Shown: positions 44,189-63,690 of the stretch, piece by piece
Layout: every line of letters begins with the position of its first letter
Position numbering within the stretch: the stretch's first letter is position 1
From: a virus
Reading direction: 5' to 3' (one strand)
Virus record (IMG/VR): IMGVR_UViG_3300008267_012518
Length of the DNA stretch: 64,000 nt
Translations under genes and position numbers: made by a program
The notes under the pieces: generated by a model
Database searches by the model: none
What the model was told of the DNA's origin: nothing
The model's input: the letters and a program-made list of their open reading frames with translations, nothing else

Positions 44189-44787
44189 TGAGGTTATCAT
44201 CACAAAATTCACAATTCGTATTCAATTTACCATCTGATTTTTTACCTGGTGAAATTATTAGCACATATAAACCAATACTAGAAAAAAATTGGGTCCAATA
44301 TGAAAATGTAATTGATTATCTGAATTCTACGATCAAATCTGTGTCTTACCCAGGATTAAATATCACCACACCCGAACAAACCTTAATACGTGGTAAAAAA
44401 AGATCTTATAAACCAGCAACCAACGTTCAAGACATTTTAACATCTAGAGAAATAGACATAACCTTCCGTTCAGTAGACGCAGATTTAAACTATTGGATTT
44501 TATATGACATATTTATTAAACATTATTTAGATGTAATAAATCTTTATATAAATCCGTTTGTATTGACAGCGGTAGATATATGGAGAGATGCCATCTACAG
44601 AATAAAGTTTTATGAAATAATAGCGATGTCTTTGAGTGAAAATAAATTTGACTATAGTCAACAAAAAGTTAATGCAAAGGATTTCACTATAAAATTCAAA
44701 TTCAATTTTTCTGAGGTTGAATTCCTACTCAACAAATCCAAAGTTCTAGAACTCGGATCAGTTCCGAAGATTATCCAAAGGCTTTGA
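44188..44787 (+). CDS. Tail-tube-fold protein (gp19/gp3/gp54-like)
   Basis: IKSVSYPGL, EIDITFRSVD..LNYW, LTAVD, IKFYEI..MSLSE..FDY, FTIKFKF pattern. Confidence 0.55.
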   Translation: MRLSSQNSQFVFNLPSDFLPGEIISTYKPILEKNWVQYENVIDYLNSTIKSVSYPGLNITTPEQTLIRGKKRSYKPATNVQDILTSREIDITFRSVDADLNYWILYDIFIKHYLDVINLYINPFVLTAVDIWRDAIYRIKFYEIIAMSLSENKFDYSQQKVNAKDFTIKFKFNFSEVEFLLNKSKVLELGSVPKIIQRL

Positions 44788-45228
44788 ACCAACCTTGTAT
44801 AACTGCACGTAATCACTACAAATTCCAAAACATTTACTGAAATCATCATCAAAAATTTCTGGTAGTACGGCAATACTATTGATAATTGGTTGTTTACCAG
44901 GGTATACCCACATAAATTTTCGAGAGGTTAGTGTTAGTGTGTCTTCTTGATGCCAGAAAAAGTTCAAATCAAAATTCAGAGACAACAAATGACTAACAAG
45001 TGGTGTATTTTTACAGTGTATCCACAAATTATTTTGTCTCTCTAAAATCCAATCTAAACTTATTGGTGTTTTAGGCTCATCATGACCCAAATAAAGAATA
45101 TCATCAACAATCCATAGATCTATTTCAACATCAAATCCTTGTGACAAGGCATCATCTATATAATCTTGTTGATTTTCTCTATCCGAGTTTCTTCCGTTAG
45201 TATTTCCCCTATGAGATATGTATTTCAT
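44758..45228 (-). CDS. Short GDPD/PI-PLC-like phosphodiesterase-fold protein
   Basis: ISHRGN, FDVEIDL, LGHD, WIHCKN; start overlaps the RLP stop codon. Confidence 0.65.
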   Translation of the reverse strand: MKYISHRGNTNGRNSDRENQQDYIDDALSQGFDVEIDLWIVDDILYLGHDEPKTPISLDWILERQNNLWIHCKNTPLVSHLLSLNFDLNFFWHQEDTLTLTSRKFMWVYPGKQPIINSIAVLPEIFDDDFSKCFGICSDYVQLYKVGSKPLDNLRN

Positions 45229-46457
45229 TAAAAAATTCTATAAGCTAAATCTTCATGAAAATTCTTTACACCCCATTTTTCGATTGCTGCCAAATACTCT
45301 TTTTCAGTAGTGTGTCCATCGATAGATTGTCTCATCGCTCTACCACCAGCTAGTGTGCCCATCGGGTGACCATGCATCGCACCACCAACATTAGCCATCC
45401 AATCATGTGATTTCAGATACTCATTGACGTACTGAACCAATCCTGGATGCATTCCACAACTCAAAGCTGGAACGACATTATACTTCCATAAAACCTCAAG
45501 GGCATCTTTGAGTTCGGTATCATCTTGGTTCATATATCCACCAATCATACCAGCGTGAATTGAATCAACACCGGACCATCCAGCAATCTTACAAAGTACA
45601 GGCCAGTAAATGTGATTTGGAGCACGTTTATCGGTGAAAAACTTATCACCACTTTTCTGAAAATGTATCCAAAGGTTTGGATTTTGTTTTCGAATTGCTC
45701 TAAATACCCCCAATCCACTCCAAACATTTATATGAATTCCGGTTCCACCTTCTTGAGCAACAAAATTAGCTCTTTCGAGAGCATATGGAGAATCACCATT
45801 TATACAAAAGGTATAAATTACATCAGGTGCATTTTTTTGTAACCAGTTAGAAATTAAAGGAACCCTTTGTTTTAAAGAACAGTGGTTTGGATCTCCAAGT
45901 AACTCATCTTCTTTGATAAAGTTGACACCACCATCTACCATCTCCTTGACAGCTTCTAACAGTATTGTTGGTGACATTCCAACCTTTGGTTTGATGATAC
46001 CACCGAAAAACGGTTTTTCATGTGTGTTGGAATATTTTCTAAAACCATCAATACCATACGCAGGTTTCAGTCTAAAACTGTTTTCAATATCTTTTGGTAA
46101 TTCAATATCCAAAACATGACATTGTTCGATTTCTAATATATCAACCTGACCACCAGCAATATGACATAAAATTTGTGAAATACCATCTTCCTCAAGATTG
46201 ATGTTTTCAAAAGGGAAAGCGATTTTTACTATTCCCTCATTCTTGGATTTTAGTACACTCTCATCCTCTAAAATAAAACAAGAATGATCCAAAAACATTT
46301 GGTCGGTCTCCCAAACACTTCTATTGTTTGGATTACCAATGCTTTGACCTATTGCCAAATTCCAAGCGGCATCTCTAAGTGAAGTTTTACCTTTGAGGAA
46401 GTATGTAACTATGAAGTATTTGTCGTAATCTATAATATCAGTAAATATATTGACCAT
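45228..46457 (-). CDS. RuBisCO-like protein (RLP) with a divergent active site
   Basis: IIKPKVG (K175/K177), GVNFIKEDE (K201/D203/E204), DSIHAG, PALSCG, VGGAMHGHPMG. Confidence 0.93.
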   Translation of the reverse strand: MVNIFTDIIDYDKYFIVTYFLKGKTSLRDAAWNLAIGQSIGNPNNRSVWETDQMFLDHSCFILEDESVLKSKNEGIVKIAFPFENINLEEDGISQILCHIAGGQVDILEIEQCHVLDIELPKDIENSFRLKPAYGIDGFRKYSNTHEKPFFGGIIKPKVGMSPTILLEAVKEMVDGGVNFIKEDELLGDPNHCSLKQRVPLISNWLQKNAPDVIYTFCINGDSPYALERANFVAQEGGTGIHINVWSGLGVFRAIRKQNPNLWIHFQKSGDKFFTDKRAPNHIYWPVLCKIAGWSGVDSIHAGMIGGYMNQDDTELKDALEVLWKYNVVPALSCGMHPGLVQYVNEYLKSHDWMANVGGAMHGHPMGTLAGGRAMRQSIDGHTTEKEYLAAIEKWGVKNFHEDLAYRIF

Positions 46458-46496
46458 TTATTTTTTTTATTTTTATATTAAAAACCTAGCATAAGT

Positions 46497-47609
46497 TTAA
46501 TCTCCATCACTGAGTGATATTTTTTTTGTTTTTGATAGGGCTGAACCAATTACTTGGTGCATGTCATAATATTTATATTCCGCTAATCTTCCACCAAAAA
46601 TAAATTTATTATCATCCATTGATAATTTTTTATATTGATCATAAATTTTATTATTTGTGTCATCATTGATCGGATAATAAGCTTCATTGTTTATCGAAAA
46701 GTCCTGTGGGTATTCTTTTGTAATTATGGTATAATTAGTATTTTTGAATTCGAAGTGTTTGTGTTCGATTATTCTAGTCCAAGGTATGTCTTTATCGGTG
46801 TAATTCACACCAGCCACTCCTTGATAGTTATCTACATCAACTAATTCGTTTACAAACTTGAGACTTCTATATTTTAACTTACCGTACCGGTATCCGTAAA
46901 ACTCATCTATCTTTCCAGTGAAAACTATTTTTTTAGCTATACCATTCCAATAATCTTTACTATTGAAATAGTCAACATTCAATTTAATCTCGATTCCATC
47001 TAATATGTTACTCACCATCTGTGTATATCCACCGATTGGAATTCCTTGGTACAGATCATTAAAATAATTATTATCGTAATTAAATCTGAGTGGTATTCTT
47101 TTTATAATAGATACAGGTAAATTTTTTGGATCCGTACCCCATTGTTTGTAGGTGTATCCGTATATGAGTTTTTCATAGATATCTTTACCAACATTACTTA
47201 GAGCAAACTCCTCAAGATTGTTACAAAATTCAAAATTTATTAAATCTTGATTGATCTTTTTTCTGGCCTCGTTTGGTGTAGTAACCCCCCAAAGACCCTT
47301 GAAAGTGTTCATATTGAAAGGTAGATTATAAAGTTGATCCCCATATCTTGCTAATGGTTCATACCGAAAATTATTGAAACTTATAAATCTGTTTACATAA
47401 TCCCAAATACCTTTGTCAGATGTGTGAAAGATATGTGGTCCGTATTTGTGAACATTTATACCATCCAAATTTTCAGTAAATACATTCCCCCCTATATGAT
47501 TTCTTTTGTCTATAATCAGACAACTTTTACCTCGATCTGTCATCTCTCGAGCAAATACAGCACCAAATAACCCACATCCAACGATCAGATAATCGTATTC
47601 ATATTTCAT
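46497..47609 (-). CDS. glf: UDP-galactopyranose mutase
   Basis: GCGLFG, HIGGN, HKYGPHIFHT, YTYKQWG, YQGIP, TRIIEHKHF, GGRLAEYKYYDMHQ. Confidence 0.96.
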   Translation of the reverse strand: MKYEYDYLIVGCGLFGAVFAREMTDRGKSCLIIDKRNHIGGNVFTENLDGINVHKYGPHIFHTSDKGIWDYVNRFISFNNFRYEPLARYGDQLYNLPFNMNTFKGLWGVTTPNEARKKINQDLINFEFCNNLEEFALSNVGKDIYEKLIYGYTYKQWGTDPKNLPVSIIKRIPLRFNYDNNYFNDLYQGIPIGGYTQMVSNILDGIEIKLNVDYFNSKDYWNGIAKKIVFTGKIDEFYGYRYGKLKYRSLKFVNELVDVDNYQGVAGVNYTDKDIPWTRIIEHKHFEFKNTNYTIITKEYPQDFSINNEAYYPINDDTNNKIYDQYKKLSMDDNKFIFGGRLAEYKYYDMHQVIGSALSKTKKISLSDGD

Positions 47610-47620
47610 ATATAAAAAAT

Positions 47621-48322
47621 TTAAAATGATTTGATGATATATGCTGTAGGTGCTATGAAATTCAAGTTCTTCACTTTAAGTCCCCTTTCTTTAAGAAATC
47701 TGTCGACACCAATAGACTCGCTCCACTTAGAGTGAGCATATTCATCAAATACTACTATACCACCAATTGAGACATAATCCCAAAGGTTTACTAAAGTGTT
47801 GTAAGTAGGAACTTCTAAATCGAGATCAATGTATAATATTGATATTTTCAAACCAGGATTATCATCAACATATTTTTTTGATGTTATAGATATATCACCT
47901 TTAACAAGTTCGAAATCTGTTTGTTTGAAACCGTGTCCTTTAAGGTTCTGTTCTAAGTATAATTTATAATCTGAATTATGCTCAAAATTTCTTCCTTGGA
48001 AAAGCGTATCCATGGTTTTACGTTGAACCTCATCATTTATTGTTGATAGAAGTTGAAATGTATCAAACATATCAAACCCAACAACTTTCTTTATGCTATT
48101 TGGATTTAACACTTCTTTCAATTTCAGAAAAGTGTAGAGTCCAGATCCCTTGAAAACTCCACATTCTAGTATGTCACCTGTAATATTTTTTACTTTATTA
48201 TAGATAAGTGTTCTGGCAACGAGTTTCTGAAATACTTTTCTATCATCACTAATTATAAAACCGTTAAAATCATCAAAAATTTTTTGGGTTGTTGAAATCA
48301 TCTCTATAGTTTTTATATCCAT
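47621..48322 (-). CDS. TylF/MycF-family O-methyltransferase
   Basis: GDILECGVFKG, GFDMF, YIDLD, GGIVVFDEY. Confidence 0.8.
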   Translation of the reverse strand: MDIKTIEMISTTQKIFDDFNGFIISDDRKVFQKLVARTLIYNKVKNITGDILECGVFKGSGLYTFLKLKEVLNPNSIKKVVGFDMFDTFQLLSTINDEVQRKTMDTLFQGRNFEHNSDYKLYLEQNLKGHGFKQTDFELVKGDISITSKKYVDDNPGLKISILYIDLDLEVPTYNTLVNLWDYVSIGGIVVFDEYAHSKWSESIGVDRFLKERGLKVKNLNFIAPTAYIIKSF

Positions 48323-48328
48323 AAATTT

Positions 48329-48649
48329 TCAAATTATATATTTGTCACCGACAATCGAAGGTGATTTTATTACTAAAATATTACAATCGGTCAGAAATAT
48401 AGGATCAGCAATCTCATTTGGTCTTAATATAAAAATATCATCCTTTTTTAATTTACGACCTTGAATGATCATCTTTCCCTTTAGAATAAGGTTAATCTCC
48501 GTTGCTAATTTATGAAAATGGGTTGGCCATTTTTCGCCCTTTTTGTGTGTGAGGATCCCGACTTCAAAATCACCTTGTTTAAAACAAGAAGGTTCGAAGT
48601 CACCAATAAACCAACCTCTGTGAAAATTATTGAGTTTGAATGTTTCCAT
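48329..48649 (-). CDS. Cupin-fold protein (possible sugar epimerase/isomerase)
   Basis: GWFIGDFEP and the metal motif HFHKLATE. Confidence 0.7.
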   Translation of the reverse strand: METFKLNNFHRGWFIGDFEPSCFKQGDFEVGILTHKKGEKWPTHFHKLATEINLILKGKMIIQGRKLKKDDIFILRPNEIADPIFLTDCNILVIKSPSIVGDKYII

Positions 48650-49328
48650 TTTGTAGATATTTTTTTAAATCGTCTGGAGTACCAATAGGAAAGTGTTGAT
48701 TAAAAAGGTATATACCGATTTTTTGATTATTTTTGATTAGATAGTTATATGTTGGTGCAACATAATATTCACCATTTGTTTTGTCTTCATTTTTTACCAT
48801 TTGTTCATAAGATTCAAAAAAATCCGAGGCTTTATTCCAATAATGCAACCCGTTTGTGGCTAAATTAGATATTACTTGTTTTTCCTTCACATCTTTGACT
48901 AAATTATTTTCGTCAATTTGAACATAAGAATTTTTTTGGTGGTTGGATATAAAACATCCAAAACATCCATCAAATTGCCTAGCATATCTGATAAATAAAT
49001 CTAAATTCCAATCTTTTATTATTTGGTCACAGTTTGTTATGATTAATTCTGAATTAGGATCAATCGAATCTTTGGCTAAATAAGCTGTCGAAGCAGGTCC
49101 CTCTGTCGTATAATCGATTTCTATTACTTTCGATCCAAAAGATTGGAAACTATGTCCCTTTCTTCCAATGACTGTTATATCAATTTTTTGATCTACAAAA
49201 TTATTGATTACGTGCTCGATCATATTTCTACCATCCCAAGAAATCAAAGGTTTTGGCTCGATCCACTCAGAATTAATAAATCTAGTCCCCCTACCCGCAG
49301 CTAATATAATTAAATTTATTTTATCCAT
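48627..49328 (-). CDS. Sugar-phosphate nucleotidyltransferase (RmlA/GlmU fold)
   Basis: ILAAGRGTRF, PKPLI, TNCDQ, GTPDDL. Confidence 0.82.
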   Translation of the reverse strand: MDKINLIILAAGRGTRFINSEWIEPKPLISWDGRNMIEHVINNFVDQKIDITVIGRKGHSFQSFGSKVIEIDYTTEGPASTAYLAKDSIDPNSELIITNCDQIIKDWNLDLFIRYARQFDGCFGCFISNHQKNSYVQIDENNLVKDVKEKQVISNLATNGLHYWNKASDFFESYEQMVKNEDKTNGEYYVAPTYNYLIKNNQKIGIYLFNQHFPIGTPDDLKKYLQNGNIQTQ

Positions 49329-49331
49329 AGT

Positions 49332-50069
49332 TTATCTATAAACACCAATGTGAATTGAACAATGTTCGACTACCAAGTCATTAATTTTCTCTAGGTGAAC
49401 TTTTAAATTAGATTCATCATAACTAGCATATTGGTTGGTCTTAATAATTTCGGGATAATTATCATATACAAGACTATACTTTTTCATTGCTTCTGATGTT
49501 CCAATTGCAAATAAATTTGAACACCCATGCCCATCAGGCCAATCGTATCCTGGATTTACCAAAATTAGTTTGGGATTTTCGTCTATCCGCTTTTTTATAT
49601 TTTCCCAATCAACTATGGTTTTATCCCATTCAACGTCATGATCCATCCTATATTTGATTGCGTATTTATAAGATACATTATTTTCATTTTCATACTGTTC
49701 TTTGACCTCGAATGCTTTTTTTATAGAATAAAACTGTGACCACGATGACCAAACTTTGTTTATGGGATTTCTATATCCTGGTGAAACGCTAGTATTTTTA
49801 TAAAAGTCGGTTTTATCATAATCCTCAATTATGTATTTTTTAGGTTTATATAATTCAACGAATTGTGTCGCGTCATGAACTTTACTTTGCTTATTTTCCC
49901 AACCCATCTGGTCTCCCCAACTACTCAATAATTTATCATGTTGCCAAATATGACCAAATACGTCATATTCAAGCCCATTAAACAAATTTAAAAAATCCTC
50001 ATATCCCTTCTCGACACACCTTGGTTGTCCACTAAAACAAATTCCAAAATCCTTTATAATTTTTTCCAT
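49332..50069 (-). CDS. Putative glycosyltransferase of the CxSGQxR...RxD family
   Basis: ICFSGQPR, DVFGHIW, SQFYSIK, KYRMD, NLFAIG; paralogous to 52309-52959. Confidence 0.5.
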   Translation of the reverse strand: MEKIIKDFGICFSGQPRCVEKGYEDFLNLFNGLEYDVFGHIWQHDKLLSSWGDQMGWENKQSKVHDATQFVELYKPKKYIIEDYDKTDFYKNTSVSPGYRNPINKVWSSWSQFYSIKKAFEVKEQYENENNVSYKYAIKYRMDHDVEWDKTIVDWENIKKRIDENPKLILVNPGYDWPDGHGCSNLFAIGTSEAMKKYSLVYDNYPEIIKTNQYASYDESNLKVHLEKINDLVVEHCSIHIGVYR

Positions 50070-50153
50070 TAAATCTTATATGAAATATATCATTTGAGTT
50101 TTTAAATTTAAAAAACTTTTCTCTGATTTATATTTATAATAAATAAAATTATT

Positions 50154-50876
50154 ATGAATTACAATCCAACCCAAAAATATAACTTCAAATTTGAAGTGGA
50201 TCAATTTGGTTTTAATCATTTGGATAAAGATTTTTTTGATCGTGATGAGATTATTCTTATTGAAAAATTCGAAAAATTATGCCAAATAATAAAAATCTAT
50301 GATCAAAAAAAATACAAAATGATTGAATTGGGATGCAATCAATGTTTCTATTCTTTATTCTTTAAATTTATATTAGGTATTAACAATACAAACACTGTTC
50401 TCGTAGAACCATATAAACCTTTCCTAGAGAGGGGTAAGAGAAATTTTCATATCAACGGTCTTGATTGTGAAATAATAAACAAGTGTGTTGGAAGGAAGAA
50501 ATGGCTGGGTACAAGTTCACCAGATTATGAATTCGATGTTGAACTTACTACTTTAAATGAATTGATGTGTGGTGATACTTTCGATATACTCCATTCAGAT
50601 ATTGATGGTAATGAATTATATATGTTACTAGAAAACAAAGATATATTCCAAGAAAAAAAAATAAAAAATATATTTCTTTTGACCCACGGTGGTAGTGTTC
50701 ACTTCAATGAAATGCTTGAAAATGACAGACCAGATACAACACATTATAAATGCAAAGAATTTTTTACAAACACTGAGTATAAATTAATATATGAGTGTGA
50801 AGAGTGGGAAGTTGGTGGTGATTCATTATTGATTTATTCGATCGATGAAAACGTTATATCAAGTTTTCAGAATTGA
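50154..50876 (+). CDS. FkbM-like SAM-dependent methyltransferase, opposite orientation to the cluster
   Basis: IELGCNQCFYS, LVEP, ILHSDIDGNE. Confidence 0.65.
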   Translation: MNYNPTQKYNFKFEVDQFGFNHLDKDFFDRDEIILIEKFEKLCQIIKIYDQKKYKMIELGCNQCFYSLFFKFILGINNTNTVLVEPYKPFLERGKRNFHINGLDCEIINKCVGRKKWLGTSSPDYEFDVELTTLNELMCGDTFDILHSDIDGNELYMLLENKDIFQEKKIKNIFLLTHGGSVHFNEMLENDRPDTTHYKCKEFFTNTEYKLIYECEEWEVGGDSLLIYSIDENVISSFQN

Positions 50877-50879
50877 TTT

Positions 50880-50913
50880 ATAGAAAATATGACTACGTAG
50901 TCATATTTTCTAT
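50880..50913. repeat. 34-bp perfect palindrome between convergent genes
   Basis: ATAGAAAATATGACTACGTAGTCATATTTTCTAT is its own reverse complement. Confidence 0.9.
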
Positions 50914-50923
50914 GGAATTAATA

Positions 50924-52291
50924 TTATTTATAATTTTCTAAAAAATAATTTAGATCTTCTGGTGTACCCAATCCCCACATATTTTCGACATGGTAAGTTT
51001 TTATTTTTTTACCATCATTAATCGCCAGATTATAAACAGGACACACATAAAATTCACCATTTATCCTCATATTCTTTTCAATCATTTCCTCCGAATATTT
51101 AACAAAATCACTACCACGTTTCCAATAATAAAAACCAACGGTTGCTAAATCCGATATTGGGTTTTTTTCCGAAACTTCACTAACATAACCATCTTCACCT
51201 ACTCTAGCGAATGACCACTTTGGGTGAGTTGAAGTAAATGTCACTATACCACCATCCAAATCACACTCATTCATTTTGTAAAAAAAATCGTTGGAATCCC
51301 ACTCTACAAACTGATCCGAATTAGCAAAAAACAATGGTAGGTCTACATTTATAATATCTTTAGATAAAAGAGCACTACAAGCGGCCCCTTCGGTCACACC
51401 ATCAACTTCTACGATTTTACAATTTGGAGTAATTAGGTTTAGTAGTGTTCCTAAATTATATTTTTCCTTATGTGACTTTTGAACAATGTAAATGTAGTTA
51501 GCTTTGATATTCAAATTTTCAACAACAACTTGAATCATGGGTTTATTCCTAACATCAATTAGTGGCTTAGGAAAAGTATACCCAACTTTTTCAAATCTCG
51601 AACCTTGTCCAGCCATGGGTATAATCACATTTAATTTCTCATCAGACCAATAAGGTATTGGATTTTTTTTATCCATCTCCAAAATGTTGATTTTACTCTT
51701 GATGAAATCCGAAGTTATTTCAGATGGTGAATTTATCCTTATAACATTCGATTTACTATTTGAGGCCGCGTACAATCCTGGTGGCGAATCTTCTAAAATT
51801 AAAGTTTCGTTGGGTAAAAAACCGAAGTAGGACATCGCTTTCCAATAAATCTCAGGATGTGGTTTTGGAAATTCAACATCTTCATTTGACAAAAGTAAGT
51901 CAAAGAATTCTATAATACCCAATCTAGATAATGAAGTTAAAACGGTTTTCTTAATACTATTTGAACAAACAGCGATTTTATATTTCTCTGATAACTCAGT
52001 TAAACAATCTATGAGGTTATTGTTAATACTCAAACTTTGTAGTTTTTGTAAGGTGATTTTTTGTTTTTTCTGCCAAATTTCGTCATACTCCGTTACTGGT
52101 AAATTTTTCTCCAGTGTCAAAATTTGTAATTTCTGATTTGTTTTAAGACCATCAAATTTTGACAAATGATCTTCCCAAGATATAGAGTATTTATCACCAA
52201 GTGCCAAATTCAAGGCTTCGTAATGAATCTTTTTAGCATCAACTAAGACACCATCAAGATCAAAAATAATAAATTTAATTTTGTTTTTCAA
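50924..52291 (-). CDS. HAD phosphatase fused to a sugar-phosphate nucleotidyltransferase
   Basis: FDLDGVL, KPHPEIY, ILEDS; then IPMAGQGSRF, PKPLI, ANSDQ, GLGTPEDL. Confidence 0.88.
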   Translation of the reverse strand: MKNKIKFIIFDLDGVLVDAKKIHYEALNLALGDKYSISWEDHLSKFDGLKTNQKLQILTLEKNLPVTEYDEIWQKKQKITLQKLQSLSINNNLIDCLTELSEKYKIAVCSNSIKKTVLTSLSRLGIIEFFDLLLSNEDVEFPKPHPEIYWKAMSYFGFLPNETLILEDSPPGLYAASNSKSNVIRINSPSEITSDFIKSKINILEMDKKNPIPYWSDEKLNVIIPMAGQGSRFEKVGYTFPKPLIDVRNKPMIQVVVENLNIKANYIYIVQKSHKEKYNLGTLLNLITPNCKIVEVDGVTEGAACSALLSKDIINVDLPLFFANSDQFVEWDSNDFFYKMNECDLDGGIVTFTSTHPKWSFARVGEDGYVSEVSEKNPISDLATVGFYYWKRGSDFVKYSEEMIEKNMRINGEFYVCPVYNLAINDGKKIKTYHVENMWGLGTPEDLNYFLENYK

Positions 52292-52308
52292 TTTTTATTT
52301 TTATTTTT

Positions 52309-52959
52309 TCATAAGACTATTCTACCATCAGATCTGACTAAATCAAAAGTCCTTGGGATTGAATTGTTACCAATATTATGATGGCTCAAATGTTCCGAAA
52401 TTATTCCCTCAGGACACATTTGATTAATCCTTTCTGTTTGGTCATATTCGTCAAAAATATTCGAATAAATGTCCATCAACTCCGAACTTCCGTATGCAAA
52501 CCAATCATTTAATCCACCACAACCACCAGATCTGTTGATTAGGTTTATTCCACCATTTGAAATATCAAAAGATATCCTTTGGTTATACTTCAGATCGTAC
52601 CTCGCTCTGATGCAAACATCATATTTAAAATTATTTAATAATTCATAGTCAACCTTCATTCTATTTGATTCACGTATAGAATAAAACATACTTCTTGTAG
52701 GAACATCAATAGATGGATGATCAAATCGGAAAGATTTTGGCTTCAATGTATTCAAAACGTCAATAATATCATCCATAGAGTATCCCCCAAAATCTGTTGG
52801 ATCATAATTCCAAAAATTTTGGTATTTACTGTTATCATACTTATACCAAGAATGACAAAAAATATCCACGTCGTTATTTTCTAAAATATTTTCAATCAAA
52901 CTTTGTTTCACCAGTGGGAAACTTCTGATTTGTCCAGATAAGCAAAGGGCAATTTTCAT
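52309..52959 (-). CDS. Putative glycosyltransferase of the CxSGQxR...RxD family
   Basis: KIALCLSGQIR, DIFCHSW, SMFYSI, RARYD, NDWFAYG. Confidence 0.5.
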   Translation of the reverse strand: MKIALCLSGQIRSFPLVKQSLIENILENNDVDIFCHSWYKYDNSKYQNFWNYDPTDFGGYSMDDIIDVLNTLKPKSFRFDHPSIDVPTRSMFYSIRESNRMKVDYELLNNFKYDVCIRARYDLKYNQRISFDISNGGINLINRSGGCGGLNDWFAYGSSELMDIYSNIFDEYDQTERINQMCPEGIISEHLSHHNIGNNSIPRTFDLVRSDGRIVL

Positions 52960-53963
52960 AATGAATATTTACTTTCTATATAATTTTTAATCCATTTATA
53001 GTTGAAATATTTATCTACAATATAAATCTGATTCAATAAGCATTTTTGATAAAGGAATTCATCCTTTTGTAACAACGTATACTTCTCTACAAATTCCTCA
53101 GCGGTTGAAAATAAAGTTTCTTCTGAAAAATAATCACCATCCTCAAATGGAAAAACCAAATCTGTTCTTTGCATCAACATAAGTGAGTTTGTAGATAATC
53201 CCTCAAAAAACCTTTTACATAAATGACCAGTACCGTTAAGATTAAGGAAATATTTAAAACTTGAAATTGCTTTAATAAAGTCAGCGTTGCTCAAGTTATT
53301 AGCAGTCAATAGATATGGATGAATTTTTTGCAAAATTTCCAAGCGGTTACAATACTCATCTGGGTATGGTTCTCTTGTTCTGTATATTGCTGTCCCAGCC
53401 CAAAAACAAGATGGTATTCTATTTTCTGGAATTATTTTAATTCTCTCCTCATAAAGTGTCCAAGGAGCATTTGGTTTACCATAAACAATAAACGGAAATG
53501 GGAAAACATCATCATCATACTCATCAATCCAATCCTTTCTGTATTCTCTTTTGAAAACAAAATCACATTTCATATTGTTTTCTCTGAGCCACATCAATCC
53601 ACCTCGGACCACTGCTCTGTCAGTGTCGTCCAAATAAATAACTCTATTTATTTTGATGTTTGAAAGTTTATCGTAGATCATTTTGAAATACTCTCTTCTT
53701 TCTGAGGTATTTGGTGTGTATGGCATGTCATTGAATGTATGGACTGGCCAAATGAATACTACCATATCATATTCATTTTCCAAAAGAGACCAATCTTCAA
53801 TAACATCGATACCGTATCTATCCTCACAATATTTTTTGTCCGGAATAACTTGAAGTTCCTTAAATTGATCCAAGGGAATGAATGGAGAAAAATAATCACA
53901 AGGTTCAAAAAGATGAAAAGCTGGTGGAAAATGTTTCTCTAAATCGATGATTAAATTTTTCAT
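52956..53963 (-). CDS. Putative glycosyltransferase (CgeB/GT47-like C-terminus)
   Basis: CFWAG, FLNLNGTGHLCKRFFEGL. Confidence 0.5.
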   Translation of the reverse strand: MKNLIIDLEKHFPPAFHLFEPCDYFSPFIPLDQFKELQVIPDKKYCEDRYGIDVIEDWSLLENEYDMVVFIWPVHTFNDMPYTPNTSERREYFKMIYDKLSNIKINRVIYLDDTDRAVVRGGLMWLRENNMKCDFVFKREYRKDWIDEYDDDVFPFPFIVYGKPNAPWTLYEERIKIIPENRIPSCFWAGTAIYRTREPYPDEYCNRLEILQKIHPYLLTANNLSNADFIKAISSFKYFLNLNGTGHLCKRFFEGLSTNSLMLMQRTDLVFPFEDGDYFSEETLFSTAEEFVEKYTLLQKDEFLYQKCLLNQIYIVDKYFNYKWIKNYIESKYSL

Positions 53964-54865
53964 AGTGTGTTTAAATTTTTTTTAATCCAATCAATAACAT
54001 CAACTCTTGGTTCAAATCCAAGTACCTCCCTAATTTTACTAATATCAGCGAGAGTATTTTCGGCCTCACCAGGTCTATAATCCAAGTGTACTTGTTTACT
54101 ACTGATAAGATCTGCTATTTCTTTTATTGATATGTTTTTACCAGAACCAACATTTAATACAGTGGCTCCAATTTTATTTTTTGAATTCATCGCTAAAATA
54201 TTTACATCAACTACGTCACCAACATAGATGAAGTCCCTTCTTTTATCACCCATCCCAACAATAGTTAAATCTTGTTGTTTTTCAAATTGATCCAAGAAAA
54301 TACCTAAAACAGGAGCGTAATTACCCTTCACTGGGCTTCTTTCTCCAAACACATTAAAGTACCTGAAAATGACTGAATCTAATTTGTGCATTTTCCAATA
54401 ATATCTGAAGATATCCTCTCCCAAAAATTTTGAATGTGAGTATGGATTAAGAAAATCAGTCGAATTGTCTTCCTTAGTAGGTAGATTTTCAGTCAAACCA
54501 TATACAGATGATGTAGATGAATACATTACCCTTTTTATCCCATGTTTGAGAGATAAATCTAGAATATTTAACGTGCCTATTACATTCACATTATATGCTC
54601 GATGAGGGTTTTGTATTGCGGGTTGAATCCTTGATTCTGCAGCTAAGTGAAAAACATAGTCCACCCCAACAAATAGACAGTCTATTTGTTCCTTATCACA
54701 AATATCAAATTTGTGATAAGTTGTCCTCTCATTGAAGTAAAATTTATCATTTTCGGATGCTGATAAGTCATCAATAACAACTACTTCATGACCTAGATTG
54801 ACCAACTTATCAACTAGATTACTCCCAATAAACCCAGAACCACCGGTTACTATTATTTTATACAT
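53960..54865 (-). CDS. NAD-dependent nucleotide-sugar epimerase/dehydratase
   Basis: TGGSGFIG, SSTSSVYG, YSHSK, FRYFNVFG, RDFIYVGD. Confidence 0.9.
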   Translation of the reverse strand: MYKIIVTGGSGFIGSNLVDKLVNLGHEVVVIDDLSASENDKFYFNERTTYHKFDICDKEQIDCLFVGVDYVFHLAAESRIQPAIQNPHRAYNVNVIGTLNILDLSLKHGIKRVMYSSTSSVYGLTENLPTKEDNSTDFLNPYSHSKFLGEDIFRYYWKMHKLDSVIFRYFNVFGERSPVKGNYAPVLGIFLDQFEKQQDLTIVGMGDKRRDFIYVGDVVDVNILAMNSKNKIGATVLNVGSGKNISIKEIADLISSKQVHLDYRPGEAENTLADISKIREVLGFEPRVDVIDWIKKNLNTL

Positions 54866-54869
54866 AATT

Positions 54870-55586
54870 TTATTGTTCTTTTATCATTTTTTTGAATTTG
54901 GTTGCCGACCAACCGTGTTTTCTTGGAATAAAAAATGTATTTATATTTAGTTTCAACCCATTATGGTCTTTACCAATATAATCATCTCCCAAAAAAAGTA
55001 TATCTGGTTTTACATTTTCAGTCAAAGAAATCAATTCACTTTCAGTATTATAAAAAAATACTTCATCAACATATTTTAATGAAGTCAATATTTTTTTTCT
55101 TTCTTCTTTGGAAAGTATTGGTTTGGGCTTACCCCTCTCAATCGAAGGATTATTGTGCAACCCAACCACCAAATACTCACAATTTTTCTTCGCCAATTCA
55201 AACATATGAATATATCCAGGATGAATTACATCAAAAGCGCCTGCTATAAAACCAATTTTGGGATTTGTATTCTTTTTGAAATCTTCAATAGATAAATTTT
55301 TATCATCTATAAAAAAATCAAAAGATGGTTTTCCTAAAATCAATTCATTATATTTTACACCCCACGATTTAAGCTGTGTAGTAGTCAGGTCAAATAAATT
55401 ATTATAAACTAAACTGACATTACCTTTGTAAGTTGTCATCCCTCTAGCCGTAAATATTTTTATATAATGACCCACATCAAACAAATTGTTGACTTTTAAG
55501 ATCATTTCATCATTTGGATAAGATGAGGAATAATTATTTGAGTCTGTACTACAAATAGTGTTATCTAGGTCGAAACAATAAATCAT
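54870..55586 (-). CDS. HAD-like phosphatase fused to a cytidylyltransferase-fold nucleotidyltransferase
   Basis: FDLDNTI...GKP..FIDDK; then GAFDVIHPGY, ER..IL.SLKYVDEV, GDDY. Confidence 0.8.
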   Translation of the reverse strand: MIYCFDLDNTICSTDSNNYSSSYPNDEMILKVNNLFDVGHYIKIFTARGMTTYKGNVSLVYNNLFDLTTTQLKSWGVKYNELILGKPSFDFFIDDKNLSIEDFKKNTNPKIGFIAGAFDVIHPGYIHMFELAKKNCEYLVVGLHNNPSIERGKPKPILSKEERKKILTSLKYVDEVFFYNTESELISLTENVKPDILFLGDDYIGKDHNGLKLNINTFFIPRKHGWSATKFKKMIKEQ

Positions 55587-55595
55587 AAAATTGAA

Positions 55596-56576
55596 TTAAT
55601 TAAAATTACCTAGAATAACTGAACCAAGTTTGTCTATGTCAAAATGTAACCTTTTATAACCTCTACCTGTCATAAAATTCTCAACTTCTGTGTGATTTTT
55701 TTCAGTGAACAGTAGTAAAAATCCACCACCACCAGCGCCCACTATTTTACCACCAAGAACGCCAAATAACTCCTTTGTCATTTCATAGGTCATATCAACT
55801 TCCGACACTGATATCTTATCAGAAAGACTCTTTTTCATTTTCCAATATTCGTCTAAGAGTATTCCATACTTCTTAAAGTCTCCAGACTCAAGAATACTCA
55901 ATACCTCATAAGCTTGCTGTTTTATTTTCAAGAGGGTTTCCTCTGAATTACCCTTTAATTGTTTCTGATCTTGTAAAACCTCTGATGCGTCTCTTTTGAC
56001 GTTTGTGTAATAAAGATGGACGTGCGAAAGAAATCTATTAAGCTCACTTTGTGATAAGTTTACCTCTTTTATATCAACGTTTCCATTGGTATCTATATCT
56101 AAGATTTTCAAACCACCAAACGCAGCAATATATTGATCCTGTTTACCAACTGGCTCACCTAACTTATCAATCTCAATATAACATGCCTCTTCTGCCAGAA
56201 CGATTGGTTCACGGTTTAACCTTTTGATTTCTCTAACAACGTTTGATAGACCCACTAAGAAACTACCCGAACTACCAAGACCGGTATTAGAAGGTAGATC
56301 AGCACAGGTGTTGACCTCAAATGAGTTAAACATATTGTGGTGTAAAAATAGTTCTTTAGCTCTATGATTTTTTAAATCTGATGCATTATCAACAATTTCA
56401 ATTTGAGAATACCTAAGTTTAAGGTAATTTTCGAATTCATCAGGTTTCAAAGTTATATAGATGTATTTGTTAATAGCTAGAGATATTACAAATCCTCCGT
56501 GTTTGGAGTAGAAGGATGGTAAGTCGGTACCACCACCAGCAATTGTTATTCTCAAAGGTGTTCTGGAAAGTATCAT
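55596..56576 (-). CDS. hddA: GHMP-family sugar 1-kinase, HddA/LmbP-like
   Basis: RTPLRITIAGGGTD, DLPSNTGLGSSG, GKQDQY, GAGGGGF. Confidence 0.85.
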   Translation of the reverse strand: MILSRTPLRITIAGGGTDLPSFYSKHGGFVISLAINKYIYITLKPDEFENYLKLRYSQIEIVDNASDLKNHRAKELFLHHNMFNSFEVNTCADLPSNTGLGSSGSFLVGLSNVVREIKRLNREPIVLAEEACYIEIDKLGEPVGKQDQYIAAFGGLKILDIDTNGNVDIKEVNLSQSELNRFLSHVHLYYTNVKRDASEVLQDQKQLKGNSEETLLKIKQQAYEVLSILESGDFKKYGILLDEYWKMKKSLSDKISVSEVDMTYEMTKELFGVLGGKIVGAGGGGFLLLFTEKNHTEVENFMTGRGYKRLHFDIDKLGSVILGNFN

Positions 56577-57271
56577 AGTTTATATCCAGCGTTTTTAGCG
56601 TCATCAAAAAACATTTGAACTGTTTCTCTTGAATATTCTGTCAAATCTTTATTAGACAAATTCAATTTTTTTATAAGATCTGGTGTAACAGTAATTATAT
56701 CACATCCAATTCTATCAGCTTCGAAGATATTGTATACTTCTCTAGTACTAGCCCATAAAATCTCATGCTTCGTAGAATCTCTTTTACCTAAAGCATACTC
56801 GATAATTGGTGATGGATTCACACCAGTGTCGGCGATTCGACCGGAAAAAATCGATATCACACTTTCGGTGTCTGAGTTCAATGAATTTAAAACATTATCT
56901 ATTTGTTCTTCAGTAAATACGGCTGTAATATTTAGTTTTATTTTCAGATCACTCATTTCCTTAATCAATTCATAAGTTGGAACACCTTTCGTATTCATAA
57001 CCGGAACTTTCACGTAAATATTTGGTGATATATTTGATAGTTTCATGATCTGAGATTTCATCTCTTGATAATCATCAGCGAAAATTTCAAAGGAAATTGG
57101 TAGATCCTTCACCTGATCAGTCACCTCCTTTATGAATGATAAATAATCTTTTACACCGGATTTCTTCATAAGTGAAGGGTTGGTTGTAAATCCACTCACC
57201 ATTGGATTGTTCTTGTATGTTTCCAATATTTCTGAGATATTAGAACCATCTGAAAAAATTTTTACTCTCAT
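56573..57271 (-). CDS. tal: Transaldolase (short class)
   Basis: GFTTNPSL, SFEIF, Schiff-base lysine in VKVP, NITAVF, SIFSGR, WASTRE. Confidence 0.9.
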   Translation of the reverse strand: MRVKIFSDGSNISEILETYKNNPMVSGFTTNPSLMKKSGVKDYLSFIKEVTDQVKDLPISFEIFADDYQEMKSQIMKLSNISPNIYVKVPVMNTKGVPTYELIKEMSDLKIKLNITAVFTEEQIDNVLNSLNSDTESVISIFSGRIADTGVNPSPIIEYALGKRDSTKHEILWASTREVYNIFEADRIGCDIITVTPDLIKKLNLSNKDLTEYSRETVQMFFDDAKNAGYKL

Positions 57272-57285
57272 ATTAAATATTTTTT

Positions 57286-57999
57286 TTAGGGTTTATAGAA
57301 AAATAACGCGTTTTCAGCGACGTGTGGTACTAAAAATCCAACATTTTTATTAGCGACGGCAGCTGGTCCTCTGTATTCTCTTTCACCAGTCTGTGATTGC
57401 CAATTTCTAAAATCATTAAAATCTTCCATCGCAATCTTTCTAATTTTGTTTGTTTCATCCTCATCGAATATGAAACCATACTCAGAAAATATTTGTTTCC
57501 AGTAGGTAAATGGTTGACAATTCACATGATTGTGACCAGACTGACCCGGTAAAGCGTGTGTCATAATCACACATTTAGACTTATCAAAGTCTTTCATAAA
57601 GTTGTGGACACCTAATTCATCAACGTGTTCAACAAATTCGACCGACCAACACAAATCAAAACTACCCGTAAGATCAGAAGGTCCAGTTGTGTAATCATGT
57701 GCTAAAATTTTTTCAGGAAAGAATGAAACGTCTCTAGCAATCTTAGAACCCTCAACTCCTTGTACCTCTAGACCTAAAAAATCCTTGAAATATTTAAGAT
57801 GGTATCCAAATCCACATCCGATATCTAAAACCGATTTAATATTGTATTTATCTACAATATATTTCCACATTTTCGGACACTCTGTTCCTGGGTCCCCATC
57901 GACATTACAACCACCTAAGTGACCATCGTTAAAACTCTGGTCAAAAAGTAATGATTCATGTTTATATTTTTTTATAGATTCTCTTATAGTATTAATCAT
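57286..57999 (-). CDS. Class I SAM-dependent methyltransferase
   Basis: VLDIGCGFG, GVEG, DLCWSVEFVEH. Confidence 0.8.
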   Translation of the reverse strand: MINTIRESIKKYKHESLLFDQSFNDGHLGGCNVDGDPGTECPKMWKYIVDKYNIKSVLDIGCGFGYHLKYFKDFLGLEVQGVEGSKIARDVSFFPEKILAHDYTTGPSDLTGSFDLCWSVEFVEHVDELGVHNFMKDFDKSKCVIMTHALPGQSGHNHVNCQPFTYWKQIFSEYGFIFDEDETNKIRKIAMEDFNDFRNWQSQTGEREYRGPAAVANKNVGFLVPHVAENALFFYKP

Positions 58000-58001
58000 A
58001 A

Positions 58002-58574: not shown

Positions 58575-58577
58575 AAT

Positions 58578-59252: not shown

Positions 59253-59293
59253 TTTTTTATTTTTTTATTTTATATAATTTTAAAAACTCAAGT

Positions 59294-63675: not shown

Positions 63676-63690
63676 AAAAATTTTTATTTT

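What the first reader, a model, noticed from the sequence alone, without database searches (positions are those of the whole stretch)
44758..52959. RuBisCO-like protein with a remodelled active site inside a phage nucleotide-sugar cassette: candidate undescribed pathway
Seen: the 409-aa protein has a RuBisCO large-subunit fold. Aligned by eye to spinach numbering, it keeps K175, K177, the carbamylation/Mg loop K201-x-D203-E204, H327, S379 and G403/G404. It has replaced E60 (G), N123 (G, or Q with a one-residue shift), H294 (Q), R295 (K) and loop-6 K334 (Y). Its same-strand neighbours are a translationally coupled GDPD-like protein, a cupin, two nucleotidyltransferases, a HAD phosphatase, two CxSGQxR putative transferases, glf and a TylF methyltransferase. 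No phosphoribulokinase or methionine-salvage genes are in the window. Established: characterised RLPs do enolate chemistry on sugar-like phosphates (MtnW enolase, methylthioribulose-1-P isomerase, 3-oxo-isoapionate-4-P transcarboxylase in apiose catabolism), in salvage or catabolic routes. Inference: this RLP works anabolically, rearranging a ketose phosphate into an unusual ketose or branched sugar phosphate, which is then trimmed, NDP-activated and transferred to a glycan. I recall RuBisCO-like genes being reported in phage metagenomes, so the novelty is more the pathway than the viral location.
Basis: partly seen in the sequence, partly recalled or inferred. Interest (0 to 1): 0.9.

Follow-up and report, generated by a model that had tools for sequence, protein, structure and literature searches.

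The report
Phage RuBisCO-like enzyme in sugar-activation module
A jumbo phage carries a non-carboxylating RuBisCO relative locked into a conserved gene module with a sugar-activating enzyme, which suggests, but does not prove, that this old enzyme family has a so far undescribed role in making a building block for surface glycans.

Summary
It keeps the enolisation and Mg site (K175, K177, K201-x-D203-E204, H327, S379, G403/G404). It has lost every carboxylation and cleavage residue (E60G, N123G, H294Q, R295K, K334Y).

This signature is shared by a whole clade, the 'Form IV-like' phage RLPs reported without a function by Jaffe et al. 2019.

New here:
- The RLP sits in a near-obligate module ordered nucleotidyltransferase, 106-aa cupin, RLP, 156-aa minimal GDPD-like barrel. 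Of 80 cupin-seeded IMG/VR loci, 77 carry the RLP and 59 have this exact order.
- Fusion proteins link the parts: NTase-cupin, miniGDPD-RLP and HAD-NTase-miniGDPD-SGQxR.
- Neighbours are glycan genes.
- The module also occurs sporadically in cells (Nonomuraea rosea, a Pelagibacter chromosome, Verrucomicrobiae).
- The deepest clade member lies in a catabolic operon with a kinase, transketolase and a cupin-type phosphoglucose isomerase.

Best reading: the RLP isomerises or epimerises a ketose phosphate by enolisation, on the way to an NDP-sugar. Substrate and product are unknown. HAD, glf and TylF are not core parts. The earlier scan notes I retrieved (one look-up by place) all lie on this same genome.

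The parts
45228..46457 (-). RuBisCO-like protein (409 aa) of the 'Form IV-like' phage-type clade. The enolisation and Mg site is kept. The carboxylation residues are replaced (Q294, K295, Y334, G60, G123, C380).
   Evidence: Pfam; PDB alignments; clade-wide motif alignment; tree; AF2 model and Foldseek
44758..45228 (-). Minimal GDPD-like barrel (156 aa). Invariant HRG, EN, ExD and GHD motifs. Its start overlaps the RLP stop (TAATG).
   Evidence: Sequence; 25-sequence alignment; profile against PDB GDPDs, E 2e-4; AF2 pLDDT 94.6; Foldseek and VIA top hits are all GDPD/PLD, Z up to 10.6. Present in 50 of 58 and 67 of 80 loci. Fusions.
48329..48649 (-). 106-aa single-domain cupin with the metal motif G(x5)HxH(x4)E(x6)G. 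The family is almost exclusive to RLP loci.
   Evidence: Sequence; alignment; weak Cupin_7/Cupin_2 hits; PDB cupins. 77 of 80 cupin-seeded loci carry the RLP. NTase-cupin fusions.
48627..49328 (-). Nucleotidyltransferase (233 aa), RmlA/GlmU-N/HddC-like sugar-1-phosphate type. Overlaps the cupin gene by 23 nt.
   Evidence: Pfam. Full-length NCBIfam alignments to Arch_glmU, AglF, HddC and RmlA-long; only the N-terminus aligns to IspD or MobA. PDB 4evw 2.3e-15. Present in 80 of 80 and in about 53 of 58 loci plus fused forms.
49332..50069 (-). 245-aa CxSGQxR protein, a putative transferase and paralogue of 52309-52959. No known fold assigned.
   Evidence: Paralogy; family alignment A4; no PDB hit. 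Found in 25 of 58 loci, mostly just downstream of the module. Fused to miniGDPD and to HAD-NTase.
46497..47609 (-). UDP-galactopyranose mutase (glf), inserted between the cupin and the RLP in this phage. Not part of the conserved module.
   Evidence: Pfam GLF 1.4e-76. Found in 0 of 85 and 1 of 80 related loci.
47621..48322 (-). TylF-type O-methyltransferase. An accessory gene, found in a minority of loci.
   Evidence: Pfam. Found in 15 of 85 loci, usually upstream of the NTase.
50154..50876 (+). FkbM-family methyltransferase on the opposite strand.
   Evidence: NCBIfam TIGR01444, 2.8e-06, below its cut-off. FkbM-type genes are common neighbours.
50924..52291 (-). HAD (beta-phosphoglucomutase-like) fused to a second nucleotidyltransferase that is 35% identical to the first.
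   Evidence: Pfam and NCBIfam; paralogy. Found in only 7 of 58 loci. 50% identical over its full length to the Pelagibacter copy.
52309..52959 (-). 216-aa CxSGQxR / DUF7796 protein, partner of the HAD-NTase.
   Evidence: Pfam DUF7796 7.8e-10.
52956..63999 (-). Rest of the glycan cassette: GT-like protein, NDP-sugar epimerases and dehydratases, HAD-cytidylyltransferase, GHMP kinase, transaldolase, SIS isomerase, methyltransferases, GT2-like protein. Variable between phages.
   Evidence: Pfam

Best explanation
The RLP is the conserved centre of a mobile module, found mainly in phages, ordered nucleotidyltransferase, cupin, RLP and usually a minimal GDPD-like barrel. I read this module as making a nucleotide-activated sugar for a glycan.

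Shown here:
- The enzyme keeps the carbamyl-Lys/Mg2+ site and K175/K177 that RuBisCO-family enzymes use to form an enediolate.
- It lacks all residues needed to add CO2, hydrate and cleave.
- Its gene is almost never separated from the cupin and NTase genes. The parts occur as fusion proteins.
- The NTase is of the sugar-1-phosphate type.
- Neighbours are glycan enzymes.

Inferred:
- The RLP takes a common phosphorylated 2-ketose, enolises it, and reprotonates it to give an epimer or a carbonyl-shifted isomer. The clade-invariant Tyr at position 334 and Cys at position 380 are candidate new acid/base groups.
- The metal cupin then acts as an aldose-ketose phosphosugar isomerase, as in PMI-GMP enzymes.
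- After a phosphate shift to C1, the NTase makes the NDP-sugar. The mutase could be a host enzyme, a HAD, or possibly the mini-GDPD.
- CxSGQxR proteins or GT2 enzymes transfer the sugar.

The identity of the sugar, the role of the mini-GDPD, and the glycan target (host envelope or virion) are unknown.
For: Active site.

Clade: a separate 37-row clade with SH-aLRT 99. It scores far below every curated RuBisCO or RLP cut-off.

Synteny:
- 85 RLP-seeded loci, 58 after dereplication: NTase in 53, cupin in 45 plus about 8 fused forms, mini-GDPD in 50.
- 80 cupin-seeded loci: RLP in 77, NTase in 80, order NTase-cupin-RLP-miniGDPD in 59.

Fusions:
- NTase-cupin: 8 loci here and an Atlas cluster of 196 members.
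- miniGDPD-RLP: P0290 and P0179.
- HAD-NTase-miniGDPD-SGQxR: P0354, P0360, P0367.
- miniGDPD with a PMI-type cupin, with ribulose-phosphate 3-epimerase, with HAD mutase/phosphatases and with kinases. All of these partners are sugar-phosphate enzymes.

NTase type.

Glycan context.

Cellular versions:
- GT2 lies directly downstream, or a flippase is in the cluster.
- The Pelagibacter copy lies in an LPS heptose/GT9 region.

Outgroup: the deepest clade member shares GQS, Q294 and Y334. It sits beside a cupin-type phosphoglucose isomerase, an FGGY kinase, transketolase and a class II aldolase.

Substrate supply: no PRK, MtnA, MtnB or MtnP in the phage record.
Against: - No biochemical data exist, and no substrate or product can be named.
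- The phage cupin shows no specific homology to PMI or cPGI cupins (hhalign probability 2.8%; no PF01050 hit). 'Isomerase' is therefore an analogy.
- No recognised phosphomutase or anomeric kinase is in the core, so the route to a sugar-1-phosphate is incomplete.
- The GDPD catalytic set predicts phosphodiester chemistry, which a simple ketose-P to NDP-sugar route does not need.
- Only about a fifth of randomly sampled neighbours have recognisable glycan Pfam domains.
- The RLP-NTase fusion P0125 rests on one 2.5-kb contig.
Confidence: 0.55

Rival explanations
1. C-C bond chemistry rather than simple isomerisation. The RLP would catalyse an alpha-ketol (acyloin) rearrangement, or a decarboxylation or transcarboxylation of the OiaX/OiaC type. 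The product would be a branched-chain or shortened sugar phosphate that is then activated.
For: - The Mg2+/carbamate site is intact.
- OiaX is among the better-scoring curated models, at 119 bits.
- The superfamily is known to do beta-keto-acid chemistry (Carter et al. 2018, as cited in PMC6389311).
- A conserved dedicated enzyme would be easier to explain if it makes something that ordinary epimerases cannot.
Against: - The tree places the clade apart from the OiaX-like clade.
- The score is far below the OiaX cut-off (119 against 700).
- No kinase or oxidoreductase that would make a 3-oxo-acid substrate is in the core.
- There is no direct evidence for any rearrangement.
Confidence: 0.15
2. 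A salvage-type trio that copies known RLP-cupin pairs. Either an MtnW-like enolase works with a HAD phosphatase and an acireductone-dioxygenase-like cupin, or a 1,3-isomerase works with a cupin lyase as in the MTA-isoprenoid shunt. The pathway would recycle a by-product rather than build a sugar.
For: - RLP-cupin adjacency has an experimentally shown precedent in R. rubrum and R. palustris (PMC5893883).
- The cupin has an HxH...E metal motif like dioxygenases.
- A HAD is present in this window.
Against: - No MtnA/IF-2B, MtnB, MtnP or PRK is in the 178-kb record.
- The HAD is absent from 51 of 58 loci.
- The NTase is obligate and is fused to the cupin.
- MtnW models score far below their cut-offs, and the clade is separate from MtnW-like sequences.
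- The setting is glycan genes.
Confidence: 0.08
3. The module does make an activated sugar or sugar phosphate, but the target is not a surface glycan. It could be phage DNA hypermodification, or a phosphodiester-linked, teichoic-acid-like decoration in which the mini-GDPD acts as a phosphotransferase.
For: - The phage is T4-like in its replication genes (topoisomerase II, gp32).
- gp32 and helicase genes are frequent neighbours of the module.
- Another note from this scan reports no export or polymerase genes in the window; I did not verify this.
- The GDPD catalytic residues are intact.
- The fusions in the order HAD-NTase-miniGDPD-SGQxR would fit steps downstream of the NTase.
Against: - Cellular versions sit with GT2, a Wzx-like flippase or LPS core genes.
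- The window cassette has glf, O-methyltransferases and several GT-like genes, which is typical of polysaccharides.
- No DNA-modifying transferase was identified.
Confidence: 0.12
4. A bona fide CO2-fixing or RuBP-consuming RuBisCO that augments host carbon or nucleotide metabolism.
For: - The best-scoring curated model is type III RuBisCO, at 157 bits.
- The best structural matches include form III enzymes.
Against: - K334, H294, E60 and N123 are all replaced, and this holds across the whole clade.
- The score is 157 against a cut-off of 497.
- No PRK, AMP phosphorylase-type gene or R15P isomerase is in the record.
Confidence: 0.02

Closest known systems
'Form IV-like' phage RuBisCO-like proteins (Jaffe, Castelle, Dupont & Banfield 2019, Mol Biol Evol; PMC6389311)
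   Same: This is the same clade. It is phage-encoded, groups with Beckwithbacteria sequences, falls outside the other RLP clades, and has divergent key residues.
   Different: That paper left the function 'unclear' and does not mention glycosyl, nucleotidyl, polysaccharide or cupin context in its main text. The conserved module, the fusions, the cellular carriers and the catabolic outgroup are added here.
DeepYkr RLP plus cupin methylsulfurylase of the MTA-isoprenoid shunt (R. rubrum, R. palustris; PMC5893883)
   Same: An RLP that isomerises a ketose 1-phosphate by enolisation, encoded next to a small cupin that acts on its product.
   Different: - It belongs to a different RLP clade.
- The phage record has no MtnP or MtnA.
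- Here the partner is an obligate NTase, and the setting is glycan genes.
- Homology between the two cupins could not be tested.
MtnW (YkrW) enolase with MtnX (HAD) and MtnD (cupin) in methionine salvage
   Same: RLP, HAD and cupin occur in one pathway, and the enolisation residues are retained.
   Different: - MtnW models score 86-110 bits against cut-offs of 409-514.
- It is a separate clade.
- The HAD is not in the core.
- No other salvage genes are present.
Type II phosphomannose isomerase / GDP-mannose pyrophosphorylase (ManC, AlgA, XanB)
   Same: An NTase and a cupin in one polypeptide or operon. In these enzymes the cupin makes the aldose phosphate and the NTase activates the 1-phosphate.
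   Different: The phage cupin is 106 aa with no PF01050 match. The pathway contains an RLP, which is unprecedented in such routes.
OiaX / OiaC RLPs of D-apiose catabolism
   Same: Non-carboxylating RLPs that act on sugar-derived phosphates.
   Different: - They are catabolic.
- They belong to a different clade.
- The score is 119 against a cut-off of 700.
Glycerophosphodiester phosphodiesterases (GDPD/PLC-like barrels; for example TM1621, PDB 1o1z)
   Same: The 156-aa partner shares the fold (Z 10.6, 141 residues aligned) and the HRG, EN, ExD and HD catalytic motifs.
   Different: - It is about 90 residues shorter.
- The Pfam GDPD model misses it.
- It is cytoplasmic and fused to sugar-phosphate enzymes and NTases.
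- Its substrate is unknown.

Membership tests
RuBisCO large-subunit superfamily | N-terminal alpha/beta domain plus C-terminal TIM barrel | tested here: met
   Pfam PF02788 and PF00016. AF2 model TM about 0.8 to form III enzymes and RLPs.
RuBisCO large-subunit superfamily | Carbamylatable Lys201 with Mg ligands D203 and E204, plus K175/K177 | tested here: met
   KPK and KEDE are invariant in all 35 clade sequences examined.
Bona fide RuBisCO (forms I-III) | Loop-6 K334, H294, E60 and N123 for carboxylation, hydration and cleavage | tested here: not met
   Y, Q, G and G at these positions throughout the clade.
Bona fide RuBisCO (forms I-III) | Curated model score (TIGR03326, NF003252, NF010002) | tested here: not met
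   157, 141 and 92 bits against cut-offs of 497, 438 and 489.
Bona fide RuBisCO (forms I-III) | A supply of RuBP (PRK, or AMP phosphorylase with R15P isomerase) | tested here: not met
   No PF00485 or PF01008 match in the 178-kb record, which is 78% complete.
MtnW / YkrW enolase | Curated model score and methionine-salvage neighbours | tested here: not met
   110 and 86 bits against cut-offs of 409 and 514. No MtnA, MtnB or MtnP. Separate clade.
OiaX 3-oxo-isoapionate-4-P decarboxylase | Curated model score and clade membership | tested here: not met
   119 bits against a cut-off of 700. OiaX-like representatives (P0196, P0199) fall in another clade.
'Form IV-like' phage RLP clade (Jaffe et al. 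2019) | Phage-encoded, clusters with Beckwithbacteria sequences, lies outside the other RLP clades | tested here: met
   A Beckwithbacteria locus (L092) and phage loci share a 37-row clade with SH-aLRT 99, apart from 80 other representatives.
GDPD / PLC-like phosphodiesterase (for the 156-aa protein) | HRG, E-N, ExD and HD catalytic and metal motifs | tested here: met
   Invariant H6, R7, G8, E18, N19, E35, D37 and H49. Aligned to PDB GDPDs 7e0v and 3i10 at E 2e-4.
GDPD / PLC-like phosphodiesterase (for the 156-aa protein) | TIM-barrel GDPD fold | tested here: met
   The top 22 VIA hits are all GDPD/PLD, Z 7.7-10.6, with 136-149 of 156 residues aligned. Foldseek probability 0.99.
GDPD / PLC-like phosphodiesterase (for the 156-aa protein) | Match to the Pfam GDPD model; phosphodiesterase activity | tested here: inconclusive
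   0 of 25 members hit PF03009 at E<=1. Activity cannot be tested here.
Cupin superfamily (for the 106-aa protein) | Motif 1, G(x)5HxH(x)3-4E(x)6G, and a small beta-barrel | tested here: met
   The motif is present with W41, H44, H46, E51 and G58 invariant. Weak Cupin_7 hits in 16 of 19 members. PDB cupins at 1.5e-5. The Atlas model has pLDDT 0.93.
Type II PMI-GMP-like NTase-cupin pair | The cupin belongs to the MannoseP_isomer family (PF01050) or to cPGI (PF06560) | tested here: not met
   No PF01050 or PF06560 hit. hhalign against the cPGI next to P0139 gives probability 2.8%. The architectural analogy (NTase-cupin fusions) does hold.
Sugar-1-phosphate nucleotidyltransferase (RmlA/GlmU-N/HddC type) | Full-length similarity including the sugar-binding half, not only the N-terminal NTP loop | tested here: met
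   Residues 6-226 align to Arch_glmU, AglF, HddC and RmlA-long, all below their cut-offs. Only residues 6-54 align to IspD or MobA. PDB 4evw 2.3e-15.

The most novel reading that the evidence does not exclude
This clade is the first RuBisCO-superfamily enzyme committed to anabolism of a nucleotide sugar. Together with a dedicated cupin and a miniature GDPD barrel, it converts a central ketose phosphate into a sugar with no known biosynthetic route. The product could be a rare, a keto or a branched sugar. Hundreds of aquatic jumbo phages, and a few bacteria, would use it to remodel surface or virion glycans.
Probability: 0.45. Interest if true: 0.85.

Novelty: new variant of a known kind. Interest (0 to 1): 0.72.

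Why it matters
RuBisCO-like proteins are a textbook case of an old fold recruited to new enolate chemistry. Every characterised member works in salvage or catabolism. A biosynthetic member would add a new functional branch to the superfamily.

The case here is unusually clean:
- The enzyme is more conserved than its partners across the module. More than 120 sequence clusters are 77-94% identical to it.
- The module is present in at least several hundred viral contigs.
- It is bound to a sugar-activating enzyme.

A result would probably reveal a new activated sugar. It would also give a function to three widespread orphan families: the 106-aa cupin, the mini-GDPD barrel and the CxSGQxR/DUF7796 proteins. 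It bears on what large phages do with their big glycan cassettes.

It is directly testable. The module has four small genes, and a cultured carrier exists (Nonomuraea rosea JCM 17326).

Tried and rejected
- Complex prediction of RLP with mini-GDPD gave no verdict (score 0.01). It says nothing either way.
- The Pfam GDPD model does not detect the 156-aa family.
- The profile of the CxSGQxR family found nothing in the PDB, and no paper mentions DUF7796.
- hhalign found no specific relation between the phage cupin and the cPGI-type cupin beside the deepest RLP. That adjacency is analogy, not orthology.
- tblastn found no RLP in 50,697 GenBank phage records. No isolated phage carrier is known from that set, although records near the window may be hidden.
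- Named form I-IV reference sequences could not be fetched, because control-genome hits are not returned as loci. Outgroup clades were labelled only by motifs and by sub-threshold best NCBIfam hits.
- The tree is a quick LG+G4 search with SH-aLRT only and is unrooted.
- The RLP-NTase fusion P0125 is on a single 2.5-kb contig without retrievable DNA. I give it little weight.
- A recent preprint on envelope-related proteins of huge phages does not mention RuBisCO, ribulose, nucleotide sugar, cupin, glycerophospho or lipopolysaccharide.
- I considered IspD-like CDP-alditol chemistry. I rejected it because only the NTP loop resembles IspD and the core has no reductase.

Full report
SETTING

The window is bases 31271-95270 of a 178,052-bp IMG/VR virus record that CheckV rates 78% complete. 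This implies a phage of roughly 230 kb. It encodes T4-type topoisomerase II subunits, a gp32-like protein and a collagen-like tail fibre. Its nearest GenBank relatives for two proteins are uncultured 630-640-kb phages and, more distantly, Cellulophaga phages. From 44.7 kb to the window end, almost every gene on the minus strand is a sugar or glycan enzyme.

THE OBSERVATION

The 409-aa ORF at 45228-46457(-) matches both RuBisCO large-subunit Pfam domains. It folds with confidence (pLDDT 88.5) into the complete two-domain architecture, with TM about 0.8 to form III RuBisCO and to solved RLPs alike.

I also checked them on an alignment of 35 clade members with seven form III-like sequences that carry the canonical motifs. 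The results are:
- Kept: K175/K177 (KPK), K201/D203/E204 (KEDE), H327, S379, G381 and G403/G404.
- Changed: E60G, T65N and W66P (AAESSxGTW becomes AIGQSIGNP); N123G (GGQ); H294Q; R295K (R in some members); K334Y; G380C.

These are family-wide substitutions, not quirks of one gene. The enzyme therefore retains what the superfamily needs to bind Mg2+ and make an enediolate. It has lost what is needed to add CO2, hydrate and cleave.

Two details in the finding need correcting. The HAD is the N-terminal domain of the 455-aa second nucleotidyltransferase. A plus-strand FkbM-type methyltransferase at 50154-50876 was overlooked.

THE FAMILY

The protein has more than 120 database clusters (at 90% identity) that are 77-94% identical to it, and 2,648 hits overall. 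Many lie on contigs of 50-350 kb from lake metagenomes.

An exhaustive search of 1.8 billion representatives gives about 25 full-length 50%-identity clusters at 38% identity or more. Scores then drop to ordinary RuBisCO and RLP sequences at about 30% identity.

In a 117-sequence tree these form a 37-row clade (SH-aLRT 99), separate from 80 other representatives. Those 80 include sequences with full carboxylase motifs, OiaX-like sequences and MtnW-like sequences.

Against curated NCBIfam models the protein scores 157 bits at best (type III, cut-off 497). The ten other RLP representatives I scanned score 219-340 bits on that model.

This is the 'Form IV-like' clade that Jaffe et al. (2019) found on about 80 phage fragments and in Beckwithbacteria. 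They left its function open. Their main text does not discuss gene context.

THE MODULE

I fetched 85 loci through the RLP, which gave 58 after 95% dereplication.
- Homologues of the 233-aa nucleotidyltransferase were found in 53, plus fused forms.
- The 106-aa protein was found in 45, plus about 8 fusions.
- The 156-aa protein was found in 50.
All sit at fixed offsets on the same strand.

I then seeded from the 106-aa protein instead. That scan found 527 IMG/VR stretches. Of the best 80 loci, 77 carry the RLP, 80 the NTase and 67 the 156-aa gene. Of these, 59 have the exact order NTase-cupin-RLP-miniGDPD.

In this phage, glf and a TylF-type methyltransferase have been inserted between the cupin and the RLP. 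glf occurs in 0 of 85 and 1 of 80 related loci. The HAD-NTase fusion occurs in only 7 of 58. A CxSGQxR protein follows the module in 25 of 58.

Random neighbours are enriched in NDP-sugar epimerases and dehydratases, FkbM- and TylF-type methyltransferases, and GT2 or GT25. Most have no Pfam match.

THE PARTNERS

The 106-aa protein. It has a textbook cupin metal motif, with W41, H44, H46, E51 and G58 invariant. It gives weak Cupin_7 and Cupin_2 hits and matches small PDB cupins.

The 156-aa protein. Pfam misses it. It nevertheless carries invariant HRG, EN, ExD and GHD motifs that align to solved GDPDs. It folds at pLDDT 94.6 into a stripped-down barrel. Its 22 best structural matches are all GDPD/PLD enzymes, with Z 7.7-10.6 over 136-149 of its 156 residues.

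The NTase. It aligns end-to-end with sugar-1-phosphate nucleotidyltransferases, and only through its NTP loop with IspD or MobA.

Gene fusions tie the parts together:
- NTase-cupin: 8 loci here and an Atlas cluster of 196 viral members.
- miniGDPD-RLP: P0290 and P0179.
- HAD-NTase-miniGDPD-SGQxR in one chain of about 850 aa: P0354, P0360, P0367.
- miniGDPD fused to a PMI-type cupin, to ribulose-phosphate 3-epimerase, to beta-PGM-like and KdsC-like HADs, to P-loop kinases, to methyltransferases and to GT61- or GT-D-like domains.

The mini-GDPD is therefore a general accessory of this kind of sugar-phosphate and NTase pathway. It is not exclusive to the RLP.

CELLS AND THE OUTGROUP

The module occurs in these cellular genomes:
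- A complete Pelagibacter chromosome, in an LPS heptose/GT9 region, without a recognisable cupin.
- A Verrucomicrobiae chromosome.
- Beckwithbacteria.
- Balneola (RLP and NTase only).
- Nonomuraea rosea JCM 17326, where it sits beside a GT2 on an island flanked by integrases.

It is sporadic in cells. It was found in 2 of 151 sampled Pelagibacteraceae genomes and 1 of 151 in the order of Nonomuraea.

A divergent subclade has the order RLP, small ORF, cupin, NTase, GT2. Another member lies in a cluster with a Wzx-like flippase.

The deepest branch, P0139, still has GQS, Q294 and Y334. It lies in a catabolic operon with these genes:
- an FGGY sugar kinase
- a split transketolase
- a class II aldolase
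- an aldo-keto reductase
- glycosidases
- an ABC transporter
- immediately upstream, a genuine cupin-type phosphoglucose isomerase (2e-55 to Pyrococcus cPGI)

This points to ketose or aldose phosphates as the substrate class of the active-site design.

HOW IT PROBABLY WORKS

Shown:
- Enolisation machinery is retained and carboxylation machinery is lost.
- The RLP is obligately linked with a sugar-1-P-type NTase and a metal cupin.
- The setting is glycan genes.
- No RuBP- or MTR-supplying genes are in the record.

Inferred:
- The RLP enolises a common phosphorylated 2-ketose and reprotonates it to an epimer or carbonyl-shifted isomer. The invariant Tyr334 and Cys380 are candidate new acid/base groups.
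- The cupin isomerises ketose-P to aldose-P, by analogy with PMI-GMP enzymes and the cPGI neighbour of P0139.
- A mutase step follows, and then the NTase makes the NDP-sugar. The mutase could come from the host or a HAD. By elimination it could be the mini-GDPD, but that is low-confidence.
- CxSGQxR or GT2 proteins transfer the sugar.

I put about 0.55 on this general scheme, and much less on any particular substrate.

The mini-GDPD's intact phosphodiesterase residues are not explained by the simplest version of the scheme. This is the main unexplained point.

RIVALS

- C-C rearrangement or decarboxylation to a branched or shortened sugar: 0.15.
- The same module feeding DNA modification or a phosphodiester-linked decoration: 0.12.
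- A salvage-type RLP-cupin pair, as in the MTA-isoprenoid shunt (PMC5893883) or MtnW/MtnD: 0.08.
- True carboxylase: 0.02.

NOVELTY

The viral RLP clade itself is published. Its fixed partnership with an NTase, a dedicated cupin and a miniature GDPD barrel was not found in the literature searched. The same is true of the fusion proteins, the cellular carriers, the catabolic outgroup, and hence the proposal of an anabolic, nucleotide-sugar role.

No biochemical claim can be made from sequence alone. The experiments listed under next steps are small and decisive.

Noticed in passing
P0192 (583 aa; metagenomic protein): A TIR domain fused to an RLP. It belongs to a different, well-supported RLP clade with P0206 and P0268. 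This hints that some RLPs process TIR-derived ADP-ribose-type molecules in defence systems.
   Followed up: partly
P0160 and P0162 (726 and 742 aa): An IF-2B-family domain (ribose-1,5-bisphosphate isomerase/MtnA type) fused to a RuBisCO that has full carboxylase motifs. Two consecutive steps of the AMP pathway are in one chain.
   Followed up: partly
L178:1046-9287 (GCA_023488455.1 contig): A catabolic sugar operon: AKR, class II aldolase, GntR, FGGY kinase, split transketolase, cupin-type PGI and the deepest member of the phage-type RLP clade, followed by glycosidases and an ABC transporter. It is probably an uncharacterised sugar catabolic route that uses an RLP.
   Followed up: partly
L094:1362-14624 (Nonomuraea rosea JCM 17326): The module sits on an island flanked by integrase and transposase genes. 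Also present are a GT2, an AdoHcy-hydrolase-like NAD-binding protein, a deoxynucleoside-kinase-like protein, a radical SAM enzyme and an NDP-sugar epimerase.
   Followed up: partly
P0356, P0361, P0355: The mini-GDPD domain also occurs in chytrid fungi (Spizellomyces, Geranomyces) and in a giant-virus bin (Homavirus), fused to unannotated C-terminal regions.
   Followed up: no
window 53960-58574 (-): A separate heptose-like route: SIS isomerase, transaldolase, GHMP kinase, HAD-cytidylyltransferase fusion and an epimerase. It is not part of the conserved RLP module.
   Followed up: partly
window 39114-39662 (+): A 2H phosphoesterase with a Pfam Acb1 (anti-CBASS) match at 1.6e-06.
   Followed up: no
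L187:6001-7032 and L188:4044-5075: A stand-alone PMI-type cupin fused to a mini-GDPD, in a phage-like context (RtcB, collagen-like protein) with no NTase or RLP nearby.
   Followed up: no
window 34537-37773 (-): A 1,078-aa collagen-repeat tail-fibre protein just upstream of the glycan cassette region.
   Followed up: no
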